DNA of 64,000 nucleotides from the human T2T-CHM13v2.0 reference genome, Homo sapiens: NCBI RefSeq assembly GCF_009914755.1, contig NC_060947.1; one strand, written 5' to 3'. Shown here in pieces: positions 44,727 through 54,450 of this stretch. The notes under the pieces are model-generated. The model had not been told where the DNA came from, searched no databases, and was given only the letters and a program-made list of their open reading frames with translations. The position numbers and the translations under genes are program-made. Every line of letters starts with the position of its first letter. Within the stretch, counting starts at the first letter, position 1.

Positions 44727-45045
44727 TTTATTGCTAAAAGTTCATTGACAATGTTTGGGAGACTAGGTGACCATTATTAGGGAAAGGACTGAAAGCCCGC
44801 TACATACAACTTTGGATTGGCTACTACTGCTCACATAACTGTTTAGGATTTACATGGGTTTTAGCAGAAAAGGGATCCACCATGAAAACAAACAGTATGC
44901 AACAATTTAAACTAGGAATTTCAGGCCACATCGGTTTCATGGAGCTAATTTTATGGCTGTATGCTATCACCTAGGTTTAGCTTTGTTCTTTGAAGTGTCA
45001 TCAGAATAACTGCGATAGGAGAACACCAGACACCTCTTGCAGATG
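44727..45045 (-). pseudogene. SYCP3/XLR-like terminal exon with stop (45003-45001) and polyA signal
   Basis: taacag|CAT CTG CAA GAG GTG...CAG TTA TTC TGA; AATAAA on minus strand at 44727-44732. Confidence 0.8.
44975..45019 (+). pseudogene. CHPT1-like terminal exon overlapping the SYCP3-like stop codon in antisense
   Basis: cctag|V*LCSLKCHQNNCDR vs recalled CHPT1 C-terminus VQVLSSKSHQNNMD*. Confidence 0.7.
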
Positions 45046-45151
45046 CTGTTACATGAAAAGTGATATTAATCATTTATTGAATATTTAGGTAAATATTAGA
45101 AAAATTCAGCGAACAAAATATTTTACTGCTTAAATCAATCTTCAATTTTAC

Positions 45152-45557
45152 CAATTTCCTTCATAAATTCTGTTTACAACACTGCTATTTCTTTTTTTTT
45201 TCCATTTTGTTTTTTTGAGACAGAGTTTCGCTCTTGTCGCCCAGGCTGGAGTGCAATGGCGCAATCTCAGCTCACTGCAACATCTGCCTCCCAGGTTCAA
45301 ACAATTCTCCTGCCTCAGCCTCCCTAGTAGCTGGGATTACAGGTGCCCGCCACCACGTCCCGCTAATTTTTTTTGTATTTTTAGTAGAGACAGGGTTTCG
45401 CCATGTTGGCCAGGCTGGTCTTGAACTCCTGACCTCAGGTGATCTGCCCACTGAGATTACAGGCGTGAGCCACCACGCCCGGCCCCATTTCTTTTCTAAG
45501 TTCACTTTGTTCACCAGTAAGACAAACTGTATGATTCTCCTCCAGGTCCTCCACGTG
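45152..45557 (-). pseudogene. SYCP3/XLR-like penultimate exon, interrupted by Alu and carrying a TAA stop
   Basis: ttgttgtag|CAC GTG GAG GAC...GAA ATG G[Alu]CA GTG TTG TAA (45176-45174) ACA GAA TTT ATG AAG GAA ATT G|gtaaaa. Confidence 0.88.
45198..45484 (-). mobile_element. AluS (Sq/Sp-like) inserted into a coding exon of the SYCP3/XLR-like gene
   Basis: Alu consensus with ~20-nt left-arm deletion; TSD AAAAGAAAT(G/A)G on both sides. Confidence 0.92.
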
Positions 45558-46399
45558 CTACAACAAAAAACCAAGTTCAGTTATAACCAACCACTCTTCA
45601 TCACCTTATAACTGTGTATAACTACATTTCAAAAGCAAAACACTTTAAAATTCCAATGATGGTTATTATCTATTCCAGATTTAAAAAGCACTCTAAGAGC
45701 TACCCGAAGACCAAAATACTCACTTAAGAAACATAGAAATGTGTGAATTTAGTCAATTATGATTACAGTAGGAGGCACGACAATATCACAATTTGCTCCA
45801 AACAATGGGATATTGAAATGTTCAGGTGAAGATATAGCAAAAAGAATGGAAGTTCCATGTAAATCCATGCGCTAATTTCATTCATAAGCTTCCCAAACAC
45901 CAGGTATTCGACCATTTATTATCCCTGATATTGCATGTAACATGGTTTCCATAGATAGAGGGAATAAAATGCTCAGTAGTATGATCTCGAGTTACGAAAA
46001 ATACAATTTGAATTTTAAATCTTTATTCTTCATTCAACAAACAGTGAAATAATGCCTGCTACAGAAAAGTTAGGATGTCATGTGCTATGGTGGCATTAGA
46101 AGATGAACACATGATCTTTTCCATATTCCAGTGACTTCAGGAAACATGTAAACTGAAGTCATACAAAAATGTTACAATAGACATGGAAGGGCAACTTGCT
46201 GGCACTGTACAGTGGACAATGGAGATCAATGCCTACTTAGTTGGCAAAAGAATTAGATTTCGATAGGTTAGCAAAAGGAGATAAAATTTTTATGGTGGAA
46301 GGGCTTAAATAAAGCCTGGAAATAATGGTGAATTATTTCACAGAAGGCTATCAACCTGGAGGGATGACAGGAAGGAAAGAATGTAGCAAATGAAGTGGT

Positions 46400-46705
46400 T
46401 TTTTTTTTAATATACTTTAAGTTTTTAGGGTACATGTGCACAACCTGCAGGTTTGTTACGTATGTATACATGTGCCATGTTGGTGTGCTGCACCCATTAA
46501 CTCTTCATTTAACATTAGGTATATCTCCTAATGCTATCCCTCCCCCCTCCCCCCACCCCACAACAGGCCCCGGTGTGTGATGTTCCCCTTCCTGTGTCCA
46601 TGTGTTCTCATTGTTCAATTCCCACCTATGAGTGAGAACATGCAGTGTTTGGTTTTTTGAAGCTGGAAACCATCATTCTCAGCAAACTATCGCAAGGACA
46701 AAAGC
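46400..46705 (-). mobile_element. Short L1PA 3' end with small inverted piece
   Basis: gggtacatgtgcacaac...cccacctatgagtgagaacatg, then plus-strand gaagctggaaaccatcattctc. Confidence 0.88.
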
Positions 46706-48071
46706 AAATGAAGTTTTAAAAGGAGGTCATGTCAAGGCAGAGGTGTCTCTGAATATCCATGAATTTAGAATGGAAAGCTCGTGACAGGTTGGGAAGAGGG
46801 AAGGGCGATGTCTTAGGAAGATAAGATTGCAGATCTATGAAGGATGGAAAGAGGAAGAGAGAACTCAGATGAAATTTTAATAGCGTAAGTGAGGAAGGAT
46901 GAGGTCCTGAGCTAGGACAGCAGCAGTGAGAATCTAAACAAAAAACTTAAAATAACGTTGAGGTGGTAAAAATGGCAGGGCCTAGTGATAGATAGCTGGA
47001 TGGGAAGGAAAAGGAAATGCAGAAGACTAAATCATCATGAAGTTCCCACCATAAGTGGTGACATTTAGCACTAACATTGAGAAGATCTTATTTCCCAAAC
47101 ATGTGTAACAATTGGTACATGGTTCTCAGAGACCATTAAACAACACATCCTCTACTTAGAAACACTTGAATAACAACTGAGTGTACATATTACATATATG
47201 TATACACACATGTAGTATATGTATCATAGTAAACAATGTAAAGAATGACTATCCTGAAACTCGTTTTCCTGAAACAATCCCCTCAGTTTAGAAGAGTGAA
47301 TTTTTAACAAGAATTTGAACAAGATTGTTTTAAAAACACTCCAAATTTATAAAATGAATAGGAATGTACACCATTCCATAGAAACCTAAATAGATATATA
47401 CCTGCATGGTTAAGAGGTCAATATCACTGAGGACAACTTGCAAAAGTACAAATGTGACGGGAGACAATTCTCAGTCACAAACTGTTAATTCTTTCCTGGC
47501 TTTTTCATTCTGAACGCATCTGGGCCCTGTCTTGTGATAGTAACTTGGCAGAGAAATCAATTTGTAGTCACTTCAATAATAGTGCAAGCAAATATGTCAT
47601 GAAATAATCAGGAAATAAATTTGAAATAAAAAATACCCATTTGTTACAATTGGGTGCCTTCTCTTTGAGAAACACTGGCACTAGAAAGACTATTAAACCA
47701 CATCTAGAAATGATGTAGAAACTTCTTGCTTTCATCTATTGCTGCACCAGTAAAAACTGTCGAGCAAAAGAGTCATGGTGTTTAGTCATGTAAATAAAGT
47801 GTGAATAGCCAACACGGTATGTATATTTCTGGGTGAAATTGCCAAGTTACCGTTTCCTGTTTTGGATTACACCAAAAACAATTAATGAATTCTAAAAGTA
47901 AAAATACATTTAGTTCTTACTTTAAAACAATGACATTAACATGGAAAATGCTTAAGAATTTTATAATCAAAGTATTTTTAACACTATTTTGGAAAGGAAA
48001 ACAGTTTTTTAAATTTTCAATATACATGTAAAGTCTTACGAGAATATGTTGTGTAACCAAATACCACTGAC

Positions 48072-52665: not shown

Positions 52666-52833
52666 CTGGAAGAAATTACTTTTTTTTTTTTCACTAGGTG
52701 TGAATAAGATACCACGCTTGTGTTGTAGGGCATGCCTGATGCCCAGTGTTTTAAACACAAAATGTGCCACGAGTCAAAGTTGATTTTTCTGAACTTACTT
52801 TACTAGGAGGCACAATTACATTAAACACATTAC

Positions 52834-52903
52834 CACATGTCTTCCTCATCTGTTTCTGCAAAATGACTACTTTCGGGATGGCTGTGCATTCCTGAATTCC
52901 GTG
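52834..52903 (-). pseudogene. SYCP3/XLR-like exon (…HFAETDEEDMW)
   Basis: ttttcagtgcag| acceptor, TG|gtaatg donor; EEDM resembles SYCP3 VEDM. Confidence 0.7.
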
Positions 52904-53060
52904 CTGCACTGAAAATTTGAAAAGGCAAACGTTTTTAGAGGAAGGATGCTATTGTGGACATTTTTTCACATGGAAATGTACTATTTGTGGGTTTGTATGG
53001 CTGTTTGCCAATTAAAGCTTTAAAGCAGACCTATATACATGGAGTCCCTTGAGCCCTGAC

Positions 53061-53222
53061 CATTTTACAGAGACATTTTTGCAAGCCCTCCAGGACTGAA
53101 GTCATAGATAACCATGCACTGCGGATCAGACTCCTTGGACGTCACGGACTGCACACATCCAGAAGAGCAGCTCTAAGGGCATCTGTAACTCTGCCGTGGG
53201 GCAGGAGCTTCCCATGGGAAAC
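53061..53222 (-). pseudogene. Possible first coding exon of the SYCP3/XLR-like gene
   Basis: Frame ...DPQCMVIYDF... resembles SYCP3 DQFTRAYDF. It ends in phase 1 at G|gtcagg and has an in-frame TAA at 53067-53065. The acceptor is weak. Confidence 0.4.
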
Positions 53223-54322
53223 CTAAAGCCCTTGAAACTGCTTTAGAAACCTAGGGCTTCTTAGCATATGCAAGGTGGGCACCAAAGTAACGAGGGTGCC
53301 ACGGGCTGCCCATGTGCTCCCCACGACCCGGTGCAAGGAGATAAGACAGACCGTCCCCTTGGGCGGGCACCTGTTTCCTTGACCCTTCATTCCAGTTTTA
53401 CGTCCATGCCCCGTTTCCTGGGCTACCATAAACTGAGTTTACAGCAGGGCCTTGTCAGCCTCCCTGACGCACTGCCCGTCCATACACACCATGGCTGGCC
53501 GTCCTGGGAGGCTAGAGACGACTCCTGAACCTTGTGAGTGCAAAGACACACTAAGGAACCCAGGTGTGTTAAATGAGAGCCAACGGGGAGGTCCCCAGGT
53601 TGAAGAAGAGTGGGGCTGGCATGCTCCGTGTCTACTGCTGAAGTAGCAAAGGACAAGGGAGAAGAGGCCAGCGTCCCCACCTGTCCCGTTGTGTCCCATC
53701 CAGCCCTTCCCTGGGGCTGCCTGCAGAGCTCACACCTGCTCCGCACACCTGAACTCCAGGTCCTCTGCTGAATTCTTGCCGTGCCCTTGGGACAGAGATT
53801 GCCCCTGCCCCGGGTCCCCAAGTGACCCCGTGTTGGTCGGGAGAGCTGTAGGGTGACACAGGACCTCCCCAGCCATCTGCATGGGAATGAACCTCTGTGT
53901 ACCCGTCCTCGACAGTCAGGTGCTGGCATCTGCCCTCTCACCTGCCTGGACGCCCAGCAGACCCCCGGTGACCAAGGGTCCCATCCAGATGGGTGGCCGA
54001 GCAAGAGGGACACACGCGGACTCTCCCCCAGCCTCCAGCACATGCACAGAACCCAGTGATGCTCCCGGGCACTGGGGACCACCTGGACCCCTCGATCTCC
54101 CTTCCCTGGCCCACGCCAGCCTGCCCCTAGGGGACTCTCCCTGACCCAGGCCCCAGGTGACGCTGGGGAGATTTCCTCACAGGTCAGCCTGAGCTGCCCC
54201 AAGATCCACACTCTCGTCCTCTGAGGACCTCGGACTACACGGTCCCAGTCTCCCCTCCGGCCAGGTCCTCTCCTGAGGTACCCTCGACCTCTCCTCCTCA
54301 CAGGACCTCCAGGACCTGGCAC

Positions 54323-54450
54323 CTTGATGCTCCTCTGAGGGCCTGGGTCCTTGGTCCTCGCGAGAGCAGCTGGCCTGACTGTGGGTGCCCTTTCCTGATT
54401 GGCTGGCTCAGTGCATGTGGGAGGTGGGGCTATGTGGAGCCACGCCCCCC
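54323..54450 (-). promoter_or_regulatory. GC-rich promoter and putative non-coding exon 1 of the SYCP3/XLR-like gene
   Basis: GC box GGGGGCGTGG (54440-54449), CCAAT (54398-54402), TCTCGCGAGG (54356-54365) and donor CAAG|gtgcca at 54323. These lie at the correct end of the gene, in a GC-rich island next to AT-rich DNA. Confidence 0.5.

What the first reader, a model, noticed from the sequence alone, without database searches (positions are those of the whole stretch)
44727..54450. Hidden intron-containing SYCP3/XLR-family gene next to MAGEA1: candidate human counterpart of the mouse Xlr3/4/5 cluster
Seen: six short minus-strand exons with canonical splice sites in an AT-rich region that the ORF track shows as empty. 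Their translation is colinear with SYCP3 from EDM-GEVQNM to the terminal LF*. The gene also has a GC-rich promoter at its 5' end and an AATAAA at its 3' end. Established: SYCP3, mouse XLR/SLX/SLY and human FAM9 share the Cor1 domain. Recalled: the mouse Xlr3/4/5 cluster lies near Pnma and Zfp275 in the region syntenic to Xq28. Inference: this is a decayed primate orthologue of that cluster, so the X-linked SYCP3 copy would predate the rodent-primate split. I cannot tell whether it is already annotated as a pseudogene.
Basis: partly seen in the sequence, partly recalled or inferred. Interest (0 to 1): 0.92.

Follow-up and report, generated by a model that had tools for sequence, protein, structure and literature searches.

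The report
Dead SYCP3-like gene beside MAGEA1
This is a real but broken, intron-containing X-linked copy of the meiosis gene SYCP3, one of three such relics around MAGEA1; it is an ordinary pseudogene of a known family, though it records an old X-linked duplication.

Summary
On the minus strand, window 44,546-52,753 aligns colinearly, introns included, with the human SYCP3 locus on chr12. Homologues of SYCP3 coding exons 1-4 and 6-8 sit at the same intron positions and phases, with AG/GT kept.

It is a pseudogene. There is a TAA at codon 18 of exon 1. Exon 5 is missing. Exon 6 has two frameshifting insertions. Exon 7 carries an Alu, a TAA and a +1.

It is not alone. Two more relics, A and B, lie just upstream of the window, and they group with FAM9.

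The GC-rich 5' block is homologous to the FAM9A/B/C 5' regions, but it is CpG-poor.

The gene's 5' third lies in the arm of a large X palindrome, with a 99.6%-identical twin.

The ML tree puts this copy with "SYCP3-like" proteins of tree shrew, bear, rabbit and bat, not with the putative rodent Xlr3/4/5 clade. The AU test does not reject the latter (p 0.21).

A review says an Xlr3-like Xq28 pseudogene was reported in 2005 (PMC4091450).

The parts
54272..54359 (-). Possible 5' non-coding exon ('exon 0') of the X-type gene unit
   Evidence: 70% identical over 88 bp to the stretch that lies directly 5' of the exon 1 homologue in the chr8 processed copy L005. Inferred only.
53493..54746 (-). GC-rich, CpG-poor 5' block, homologous to the 5' regions of FAM9A, FAM9B and FAM9C
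   Evidence: Window 53000-54746 matches chrX 8.366, 8.600, 10.797 and 12.625 Mb at 66-72%. A published FAM9B RT-PCR primer maps inside the 8.600 Mb block. GC is 0.59-0.65 and CpG o/e 0.16-0.40.
53402..53492 (-). Exon 1 homologue: ATG at 53492, TAA at codon 18 (53439-53441), donor GT at 53400-53401, phase 1 as in SYCP3
   Evidence: Alignment with SYCP3 exon 1 and with the chr1 processed copy, where this exon is joined directly to exon 2.
52834..52903 (-). Exon 2 homologue, open, 70 nt against 67 in SYCP3, AG/GT kept
52631..52665 (-). Exon 3 homologue (NEFQNMWESFV), 35 nt as in SYCP3, AG/GT kept
50980..51097 (-). Exon 4 homologue, 118 nt as in SYCP3, open, no indel, AG/GT kept
   Evidence: family HMM E 1.2e-6
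49300..50270 (-). Place where exon 5 should be. About 1 kb of unrelated sequence lies here and no exon 5 is detectable
   Evidence: Flanks align to intron 4 and intron 5 of copies A and B, but the exon does not. The peptide search scored 30 against a null of 27 +/- 3.3. No HMM hit. Only a self match in the genome.
48072..48173 (-). Exon 6 homologue, 102 nt against 99. Insertions of 2 and 1 bp shift the frame over about 9 codons. AG/GT kept
   Evidence: Pfam Cor1 positions 72-102, E 0.0099; best PDB hits are SYCP3
45485..45557 (-). Exon 7, first part ([24 protein letters not shown])
   Evidence: Pfam Cor1 positions 104-126, E 0.0025
45192..45484 (-). Alu, in sense orientation, inserted inside exon 7 with a target-site duplication
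   Evidence: Sequence read; alignment
45152..45191 (-). Exon 7, rest: TAA in place of the SYCP3 CAA codon, one extra base before the donor GT
45001..45045 (-). Exon 8 homologue (HLQEVSGVLLSQLF*), 9 bp shorter than SYCP3, same TGA stop
44613..44754 (-). 3' UTR homology to the last SYCP3 exon and to the chr1 processed copy. It holds AATAAA at 44727-44732. The SYCP3 acceptor AG reads AC here
51755..64000 (.). Arm of a large inverted repeat (X palindrome). It holds the 5' third of the gene, and its inner edge falls in intron 3
   Evidence: 99.59% identical over 12246 bp to chrX 151405009-151417253, inverted. Only 4 differences between 52014 and 56600.

Best explanation
Window 44.5-54.4 kb, minus strand, holds a non-processed pseudogene of the X-linked SYCP3-like (XLR/FAM9/Cor1) superfamily.

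Origin. An early eutherian ancestor copied the autosomal SYCP3 gene, introns and all, to the X chromosome. The copy acquired the 5' region now shared with the FAM9 genes and split into several lineages. This copy (C) belongs to one of them. That lineage is probably still intact in tree shrew, carnivores, bats and lagomorphs.

Decay. In the line to humans the copy lost its reading frame through these lesions:
- a nonsense codon in exon 1
- loss of exon 5
- frameshifts in exon 6
- an Alu, a nonsense codon and a +1 in exon 7

It therefore makes no Cor1 protein now.

Setting. Its promoter-proximal third sits in the arm of a large palindrome, and gene conversion keeps that third nearly identical to a truncated twin 100 kb away.

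Shown: the homology, the exon structure, the lesions, the sister copies and the palindrome. Inferred: the timing, past function, lineage assignment and present silence.
For: Homology to the SYCP3 locus. Ten non-Alu HSPs are colinear with the SYCP3 locus through exons and introns, with E down to 4.6e-60.

Exon structure. Exon boundaries and phases are identical to SYCP3, and the length differences are 0 or multiples of 3.

Family membership.
- Family HMM hits in the whole window fall only on exons 4, 6 and 7.
- tblastn with 30 family proteins gave all 16 hits at E <= 0.01 on the minus strand in exons 4, 6 and 7. Exon 3 appeared only at E 0.27 to 1, and off-target hits were never better than E 0.09.

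Lesions. They were read directly in the sequence, and exon 5 is absent by four tests.

5' region. The 5' block is shared with FAM9A/B/C. The chr1 processed copy joins the exon 1 and exon 2 homologues directly, so these were spliced exons of an X-type mRNA.

Past constraint. There is only 1 stop in 157 projected codons. Neutral change at the observed p of 0.29 would give 5.4, with P(<=1) = 0.024.

Placement. In the tree, C lies inside the eutherian X-type clade (SH-aLRT 97 and 98). It sits with the Tupaia 'SYCP3-like' protein and P0150 in a subclade supported at 88, inside a lineage supported at 93.

Palindrome.
Against: - The single-exon Pfam scores are below the curated cut-off. I could not run Pfam on the stitched peptide.
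- dN/dS against SYCP3 is 0.86, so the substitutions themselves show no purifying selection. If only part of the divergence fell on this copy, the stop-codon argument weakens to P 0.09-0.16.
- The net +3 in exon 6 comes from two frameshifting insertions and may be coincidence.
- The lineage placement has no starred support, and the AU test does not reject a place next to the putative rodent Xlr3/4/5 clade.
- Whole-genome searches with Pfam Cor1 and with the two nearest proteins did not list this locus at all.
- A word search with the exon 4 ORF found no annotated relative.
- I had no expression data, so 'silent' is inference.
Confidence: 0.9

Rival explanations
1. Copy C is the direct primate orthologue of the rodent Xlr3/4/5 genes.
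For: - In print, the mouse Xlr cluster lies where the human PNMA6 cluster is (PMC3789554, passage), and the homologous human Xq28 region holds an Xlr3-like pseudogene (PMC4091450, passage).
- The AU test does not reject C plus the putative rodent clade (delta lnL 13.4, p 0.207).
- C and that clade share a Cys in the exon 6 motif (..LCEEFL against ..MCDTFL), which SYCP3, A, B and FAM9 lack.
Against: - The ML tree puts the putative Xlr3/4/5 clade with P0132/P0140 (SH-aLRT 98) and carnivore proteins, and puts C elsewhere.
- The published pseudogene is said to be closest to FAM9B. That fits copies A and B, which group with FAM9 at 98, not C.
- My label for the rodent clade is weak. It rests on a 5-of-6 residue match to a peptide translated from an Xlr5c primer, and on a length of 236 aa.
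Confidence: 0.25
2. The locus is still used. Either it gives a testis or tumour non-coding RNA driven by the conserved, duplicated 5' block, or it gives a short protein of about 83 aa. That protein would start at the ATG of codon 22 of exon 1 and end at a TGA created if exon 4 were spliced to exon 6.
For: - All recognisable splice sites are kept.
- The 5' block and exons 1-3 are held at about 99.9% identity in both palindrome arms.
- The frame from codon 22 through exon 4 is open.
Against: - RefSeq has no model here, according to the hub table.
- CpG depletion of the 5' block suggests long-term germline methylation.
- Arm identity is a property of the whole palindrome, not of this relic.
- Such a protein would have only about a quarter of the Cor1 domain.
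- I had no expression data.
Confidence: 0.1
3. The exons are chance similarity in AT-rich DNA, or a processed (retro) copy of SYCP3.
For: Single-exon Pfam scores are weak.
Against: - The introns align with SYCP3 introns.
- HMM hits occur nowhere else in the window.
- Shuffled controls score far lower.
- Processed copies, such as those on chr1 and chr8, lack introns.
Confidence: 0.01

Closest known systems
SYCP3 (human chr12, the parent gene)
   Same: - The same eight coding exons, intron positions and phases
- Introns still alignable, K2P about 0.29
- The same TGA stop after ..LF
- Homologous 3' UTR
   Different: - The 5' block is not alignable to the SYCP3 promoter. Only exon 1 aligns, and weakly.
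- 29% nucleotide difference in the exons.
- Exon 5 is lost, there are stops and frameshifts, and an Alu sits in exon 7. It is not coding.
FAM9A, FAM9B and FAM9C (Xp22, human X-linked Cor1 genes)
   Same: - X-linked
- Share the GC-rich 5' block and exon 1 region at 66-72%
- Share the FAETDE motif in exon 2
- Lie in the same eutherian X-type clade
   Different: - FAM9B ends inside exon 7. Copies A and B have a TAA at that place, while C keeps the SYCP3-type C-terminus.
- C does not group with FAM9, whereas A and B do (SH-aLRT 98).
- FAM9 genes are intact.
Mouse Xlr3/Xlr4/Xlr5 cluster (X A7)
   Same: - Same superfamily
- Syntenic neighbourhood according to print (PMC3789554, PMC4091450, passages)
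- Multi-copy locus on the X
   Different: - The rodent genes are intact and expressed.
- In my tree the putative rodent clade lies in another lineage than C, though this is not significant.
- No named mouse sequence was available to me.
Predicted 'synaptonemal complex protein 3-like' proteins of Tupaia chinensis (P0155) and Ursus americanus (P0293), and the unnamed P0150
   Same: - Nearest rows to C in the tree. Identity to P0293 is 52% over 128 columns.
- Shared KAF..L.EEFL and DLEENH motifs.
- Best tblastn hits on C's exons.
   Different: They are intact open frames that include exon 5. Their genomic place is unknown to me, so orthology is inferred from the tree alone.

Membership tests
Cor1 / SYCP3 / XLR / FAM9 superfamily (Pfam PF04803) | Cor1 domain recognised by the family profile | tested here: inconclusive
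   Pfam on single exon ORFs gave two colinear Cor1 hits, at 16.6 and 18.6 bits, below the cut-off of 32.1. A profile I built from 68 family proteins gave the stitched peptide 110.5 bits, against 5.4 for the best shuffle. Pfam itself could not be run on the stitched peptide.
Cor1 / SYCP3 / XLR / FAM9 superfamily (Pfam PF04803) | SYCP3-type exon-intron structure | tested here: met
   Seven of eight coding exons lie at homologous positions with the same phases and with AG/GT. The introns are alignable.
Cor1 / SYCP3 / XLR / FAM9 superfamily (Pfam PF04803) | Intact open reading frame (a functional member) | tested here: not met
   TAA in exon 1, exon 5 absent, frameshifts in exon 6, and an Alu, a TAA and a +1 in exon 7. 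It is a pseudogene member.
Eutherian X-linked SYCP3-like genes (X-type clade) | Branches with the X-type proteins and not with canonical SYCP3 | tested here: met
   C lies inside a 58-row clade (SH-aLRT 97) and a 51-row clade (98), apart from eutherian SYCP3.
Eutherian X-linked SYCP3-like genes (X-type clade) | FAM9-type 5' region | tested here: met
   66-72% identity to the 5' blocks of the three FAM9 loci. The FAM9B primer maps in the block.
Xlr3/4/5 orthologue | Groups with mouse XLR3/4/5 in a tree | tested here: inconclusive
   In the ML tree C is not with the putative rodent clade. AU p is 0.207 for forcing them together. The rodent rows are unnamed and were labelled only through a primer-derived motif and a length.
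Xlr3/4/5 orthologue | Conserved synteny shown by a human-mouse alignment | not testable with these tools
   No mouse genome was at hand. I have only passages in PMC3789554 and PMC4091450.
FAM9 subfamily | Groups with FAM9 and shares the stop inside exon 7 | tested here: not met
   A and B group with FAM9 (98) and have the TAA. C does neither. I did not run an AU test for C plus FAM9.

The most novel reading that the evidence does not exclude
Copy C may be the human remnant of a second, separate eutherian X-linked SYCP3-like lineage, distinct from both FAM9 and Xlr3/4/5. That lineage would survive as an intact gene in tree shrew, carnivores, bats and lagomorphs. On this reading the ancestral Xq28 locus already held at least two paralogues side by side before primates and rodents split. 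Primates then lost this one late, after tens of millions of years of frame maintenance. Its promoter and first three exons would now be preserved in duplicate only because they fell inside a palindrome arm.
Probability: 0.4. Interest if true: 0.4.

Novelty: new member of a known kind. Interest (0 to 1): 0.3.

Why it matters
The locus adds three unannotated relics (A, B and C) to the human catalogue of SYCP3-derived X-linked genes. It also places them where the mouse keeps its imprinted, brain- and testis-relevant Xlr3/4/5 cluster.

This bears on a standing practical question: what is the human counterpart of Xlr3b? The literature uses FAM9B at Xp22 as a proxy (PMC5753145, PMC5502326, PMC9712601, passages). 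The syntenic Xq28 site appears to hold only dead copies, from at least two lineages.

It is also a dated example of gene death next to, and partly inside, a conserved X palindrome. No new mechanism is involved.

Tried and rejected
I scanned 150 of the 153 minus-strand ORFs of 21 aa or more instead. The three at 53129-53250 were dropped to fit the cap.
- A PDB search with the exon 4 ORF found nothing.
- A word-index search with the exon 4 ORF gave no hit.
- Whole-genome searches with Pfam Cor1, P0150 and P0155 did not list this locus.
- I first took ..LVSQTLSMNF* at 44737-44799 for the last exon. Alignment to SYCP3 shows that stretch is the 3' UTR intron homologue. The true exon 8 is at 45001-45045.
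- Exon 5 was sought by DNA alignment from A and B, by peptide alignment and by HMM, without success.
- I considered a shared origin for the Alus in exon 7 of A and C. I rejected it because the two differ at positions that I recall as subfamily-diagnostic. That is recollection, not a tool result.
- Named mouse XLR3/4/5 proteins were not retrieved by any of the three protein searches. Open papers gave no Xlr3 or Xlr4 sequence.
- Davies 2005 and Raefski 2005 are not held.
- No tandem repeats were found in the GC-rich block.

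
Full report
WHAT IS THERE

The region is AT-rich (GC 0.27-0.36) from about 44 to 52.7 kb and GC-rich (0.53-0.66) from 53 to 55.2 kb.

I listed all minus-strand stop-to-stop ORFs and scanned 150 of the 153 that are 21 aa or longer against Pfam. Three ORFs at 53129-53250 were dropped to fit the cap. 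Cor1 (PF04803) was hit twice, and in colinear order. Window 48039-48173 matched profile positions 72-102 (E 0.0099). Window 45438-45557 matched positions 104-126 (E 0.0025). Both scores are below the curated cut-off. The best PDB hits of the first ORF are mouse and human SYCP3. The exon 4 ORF found nothing in the PDB.

THE DECISIVE TEST

The window's own genome could be searched. A Cor1 scan of it found SYCP3 on chr12 exon by exon, processed copies on chr1 and chr8, FAM9B at Xp22, and two further multi-exon matches just upstream of the window. It did not list the finding's own locus.

I fetched the SYCP3 locus and defined its eight coding exons and their phases. For this I used the chr1 processed copy and the translations.

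blastn of window 44000-55500 against the 20-kb SYCP3 locus gave ten non-Alu HSPs. All are colinear, in one orientation, and they run through introns as well as exons. Window 44546-52753 matches SYCP3-locus positions 5718-14387 at 66-71% identity, with E down to 4.6e-60.

So this is a DNA-level duplicate of SYCP3 that kept its introns. It is neither chance similarity nor a retrocopy.

EXON BY EXON

All coordinates are window coordinates on the minus strand.
- Exon 1 is 53402-53492. It has an ATG, a TAA at codon 18, a donor GT, and phase 1 as in SYCP3.
- Exon 2 is 52834-52903. It is 70 nt against 67 in SYCP3, and it is open.
- Exon 3 is 52631-52665. It is 35 nt as in SYCP3 and reads NEFQNMWESFV.
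- Exon 4 is 50980-51097. It is 118 nt as in SYCP3, with no indel, and it is open.
- Exon 5 is missing. The flanks align to introns 4 and 5 of the sister copies, but about 1 kb of unrelated sequence (49300-50270) lies in between. Neither DNA, peptide nor HMM searches find the exon. Splicing exon 4 directly to exon 6 would create a TGA.
- Exon 6 is 48072-48173. It is 102 nt against 99. Insertions of 2 bp and 1 bp shift about nine codons.
- Exon 7 is split by a sense-oriented Alu with a target-site duplication (45192-44484 read as 45192-45484). The first part is 45485-45557. The rest, 45152-45191, has a TAA where SYCP3 has CAA, and one extra base before the donor.
- Exon 8 is 45001-45045. It is 9 bp shorter than in SYCP3 and ends ..SQLF with the same TGA.

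Every recognisable acceptor and donor is kept.

By homology it lies just before the acceptor of SYCP3's last, untranslated exon, and that acceptor reads AC here. The chr1 processed copy continues about 115 nt beyond it. Its use as a poly(A) signal is therefore untested.

IS IT MORE THAN CHANCE?

I built an HMM from 68 family proteins and ran it over all 3311 six-frame ORFs of 12 aa or more in the whole window. It hit only the exon 4, 7 and 6 ORFs at E<1e-3 (1.2e-6, 1.8e-6, 9.4e-5). The next hit had E 0.55.

The stitched peptide scored 110.5 bits. Of 200 shuffles, 195 scored at all, and the best reached 5.4 bits.

tblastn of 30 family proteins against the window put all 16 hits with E <= 0.01 on the minus strand in exons 4, 6 and 7. 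Exon 3 was hit only at E 0.27 to 1, and off-target hits were never better than E 0.09.

THE 5' END

The GC-rich block is not a CpG island: its CpG o/e is 0.16-0.40. It holds no tandem repeats.

It is nevertheless part of the gene unit. Window 53000-54746 matches chrX 8.366, 8.600, 10.797 and 12.625 Mb at 66-72%. The 8.600 Mb block lies 5' of the FAM9B exon found. The translation of that exon is identical to human FAM9B, P0007. A published FAM9B RT-PCR primer (PMC5753145, methods passage) maps inside that block, with 2-mismatch copies at the 8.366 and 12.625 Mb blocks and in the chr8 processed copy.

The chr1 processed copy carries the exon 1 homologue joined directly to exon 2, then exons 3 and 4. 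These were therefore spliced exons of an X-type mRNA.

The chr8 copy adds a stretch that matches window 54272-54359.

SISTER COPIES

Copy B lies at window -9043 to -717 on the minus strand (locus L009). Copy A lies at -35961 to -28996 on the plus strand (loci L010 and L013). Both align with the SYCP3 locus through their introns.

A and B are inverted duplicates, 76-83% identical. C is only 64-75% identical to either.

Intron-weighted K2P distances are as follows.

| Pair | K2P |
|---|---|
| SYCP3-C | 0.29 |
| SYCP3-A | 0.30 |
| SYCP3-B | 0.31 |
| A-C | 0.33 |
| B-C | 0.31 |
| A-B | 0.20 |

C is thus as far from A and B as from SYCP3. These distances come from alignable HSPs only, so they are underestimates. 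From recalled lineage rates, they fit a split near the base of placental mammals. That dating is inference.

A and B lack recognisable exons 1-3 and carry stops. They share a TAA inside exon 7 at the place where FAM9B ends.

A also has an Alu at the same site in exon 7 as C. The two Alus differ at positions that I recall as subfamily-diagnostic, so I read them as independent hits on an A-rich target. The subfamily reading is recollection.

PALINDROME

Window 51755-64000 is 99.59% identical, inverted, to chrX 151405009-151417253. About 18% of positions differ in the first 260 bp. Only 4 positions differ between 52014 and 56600.

The inner edge of the arm falls in intron 3. The promoter block and exons 1-3 therefore have a twin about 100 kb away. 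Exons 4-8, copies A and B, and MAGEA1 lie in the spacer. The left arm shows no SYCP3 homology beyond the edge. The twin keeps the exon 1 TAA.

Jackson et al. 2021 describe 26 human X palindromes and name PWWP4 and PNMA6 among palindrome genes (PMC8327919, passages). I did not see their table, so I cannot give the palindrome's number.

RELATIVES

An exon 6 profile found SYCP3 and FAM9B proteins. A full search with a colugo SYCP3 against cluster representatives gave 435 proteins at E <= 0.001, of which 150 were listed.

The first tree was a FastTree of 145 rows. It used representatives of 140-330 aa, 17 named proteins, and A, B and C.

The second tree was an IQ-TREE quick run (PMSF) of 71 rows: 39 representatives, 29 named proteins, and A, B and C. 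The two trees agree on these points.
- An X-type clade (SH-aLRT 97 and 98) stands apart from eutherian SYCP3.
- A and B group with FAM9 (98).
- A second lineage holds P0132/P0140, a six-row clade that I take for rodent Xlr3/4/5, and carnivore 'SYCP3-like' proteins.
- A third lineage (93) holds C, in a subclade (88) with the Tupaia 'SYCP3-like' protein P0155 and P0150. Bear, rabbit, hare and bat proteins are nearby.

The Xlr3/4/5 label is weak. P0244 and P0241 match 5 of 6 residues translated from an Xlr5c primer. P0244 has 236 aa, the length given for XLR5A/B (PMC4468186, passages).

Forcing C together with that clade costs 13.4 lnL and is not rejected (AU p 0.207). I did not test C plus FAM9.

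PAST CONSTRAINT

dN/dS between C and SYCP3 is 0.86, with dS 0.42 and dN 0.365. That gives no sign of purifying selection.

However, the projected frame holds 1 stop in 157 codons. Random substitution at the observed p of 0.29 gives 5.4 stops, with P(<=1) = 0.024. At p of 0.15-0.20 the probability is 0.16-0.09.

All complete exons also differ in length from SYCP3 by 0 or a multiple of 3.

I read this as a gene that stayed coding and evolved fast for a long time, then died in the primate line. This is suggestive, not proven.

IN PRINT

- A review states that Davies 2005 and Raefski 2005 found, in the homologous human Xq28 region, a pseudogene with homology to Xlr3, most closely related to FAM9B (PMC4091450, passage).
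- Another paper states that the mouse Xlr cluster occupies the place of the human PNMA6 cluster (PMC3789554, passage).
- A preprint says SYCP3-like amplicons occur across eutherian sex chromosomes, with Xlr3/4/5 in rodents and FAM9A-C in primates (bioRxiv 10.1101/2021.03.30.437712, passage).
- The primary 2005 papers were not held.

VERDICT

This is a real, unannotated, non-processed pseudogene of a known family, in a locus with at least three such relics. The family assignment and the old age are supported. Strict Xlr3/4/5 orthology is unresolved and not favoured by the tree.

Noticed in passing
L009:458-8784 (window -9043 to -717, minus strand); L010:3040-9501 plus L013:1-504 (window -35961 to -28996, plus strand): Two further intron-containing SYCP3-like relics, B and A. 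They are inverted duplicates, 76-83% identical, and group with FAM9. Neither matches a row in the hub's gene table.
   Followed up: partly
window 51755-64000, and L016/L017 (chrX 151405009-151417253): Arms of a large X palindrome, 99.6% identical. The inner edge cuts copy C in intron 3. There is an approximately 260-bp boundary zone with 18% divergence. MAGEA1 lies in the roughly 100-kb spacer.
   Followed up: partly
window 45192-45484, and L013 (window about -29541 to -29237): Exon 7 of copies C and A each carry a sense-oriented Alu at the same A-rich site with similar target duplications. Copy B has none. The Alus look like different subfamilies, so these are probably two independent insertions. 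Both copies also have a TAA at the same downstream codon.
   Followed up: partly
L002 (chr1:19119515-19122769); L005 (chr8:43393352-43396651): The two processed 'SYCP3' copies carry the FAM9-type exon 1 and 5' UTR. They therefore derive from X-type mRNAs and not from SYCP3. The chr8 copy is 78-88% identical to copy B's exons.
   Followed up: partly
window 37-704, 1383-4060, 6100-8003: Older duplicates, 80-85% identical, of sequence from the palindrome arm upstream of copy C. They abut the truncated 5' end of copy B, and this identity is higher than between the B and C gene bodies.
   Followed up: no
window 49300-50270: About 1 kb of GC-richer, strongly C-skewed sequence where exon 5 should be. 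The genome search found only a self match. Its origin is unexplained.
   Followed up: partly
window 53426-54577, minus strand: A 384-codon stop-free frame in the GC-rich block. It had no hit with the family HMM and is probably compositional. It was not scanned against Pfam.
   Followed up: no
chrX:10795335-10798637 (own genome, not fetched): A fourth Xp22 block homologous to the FAM9-type 5' region, at 72% the best match to the window. It lies away from the three blocks that I assign to FAM9A, FAM9B and FAM9C.
   Followed up: no
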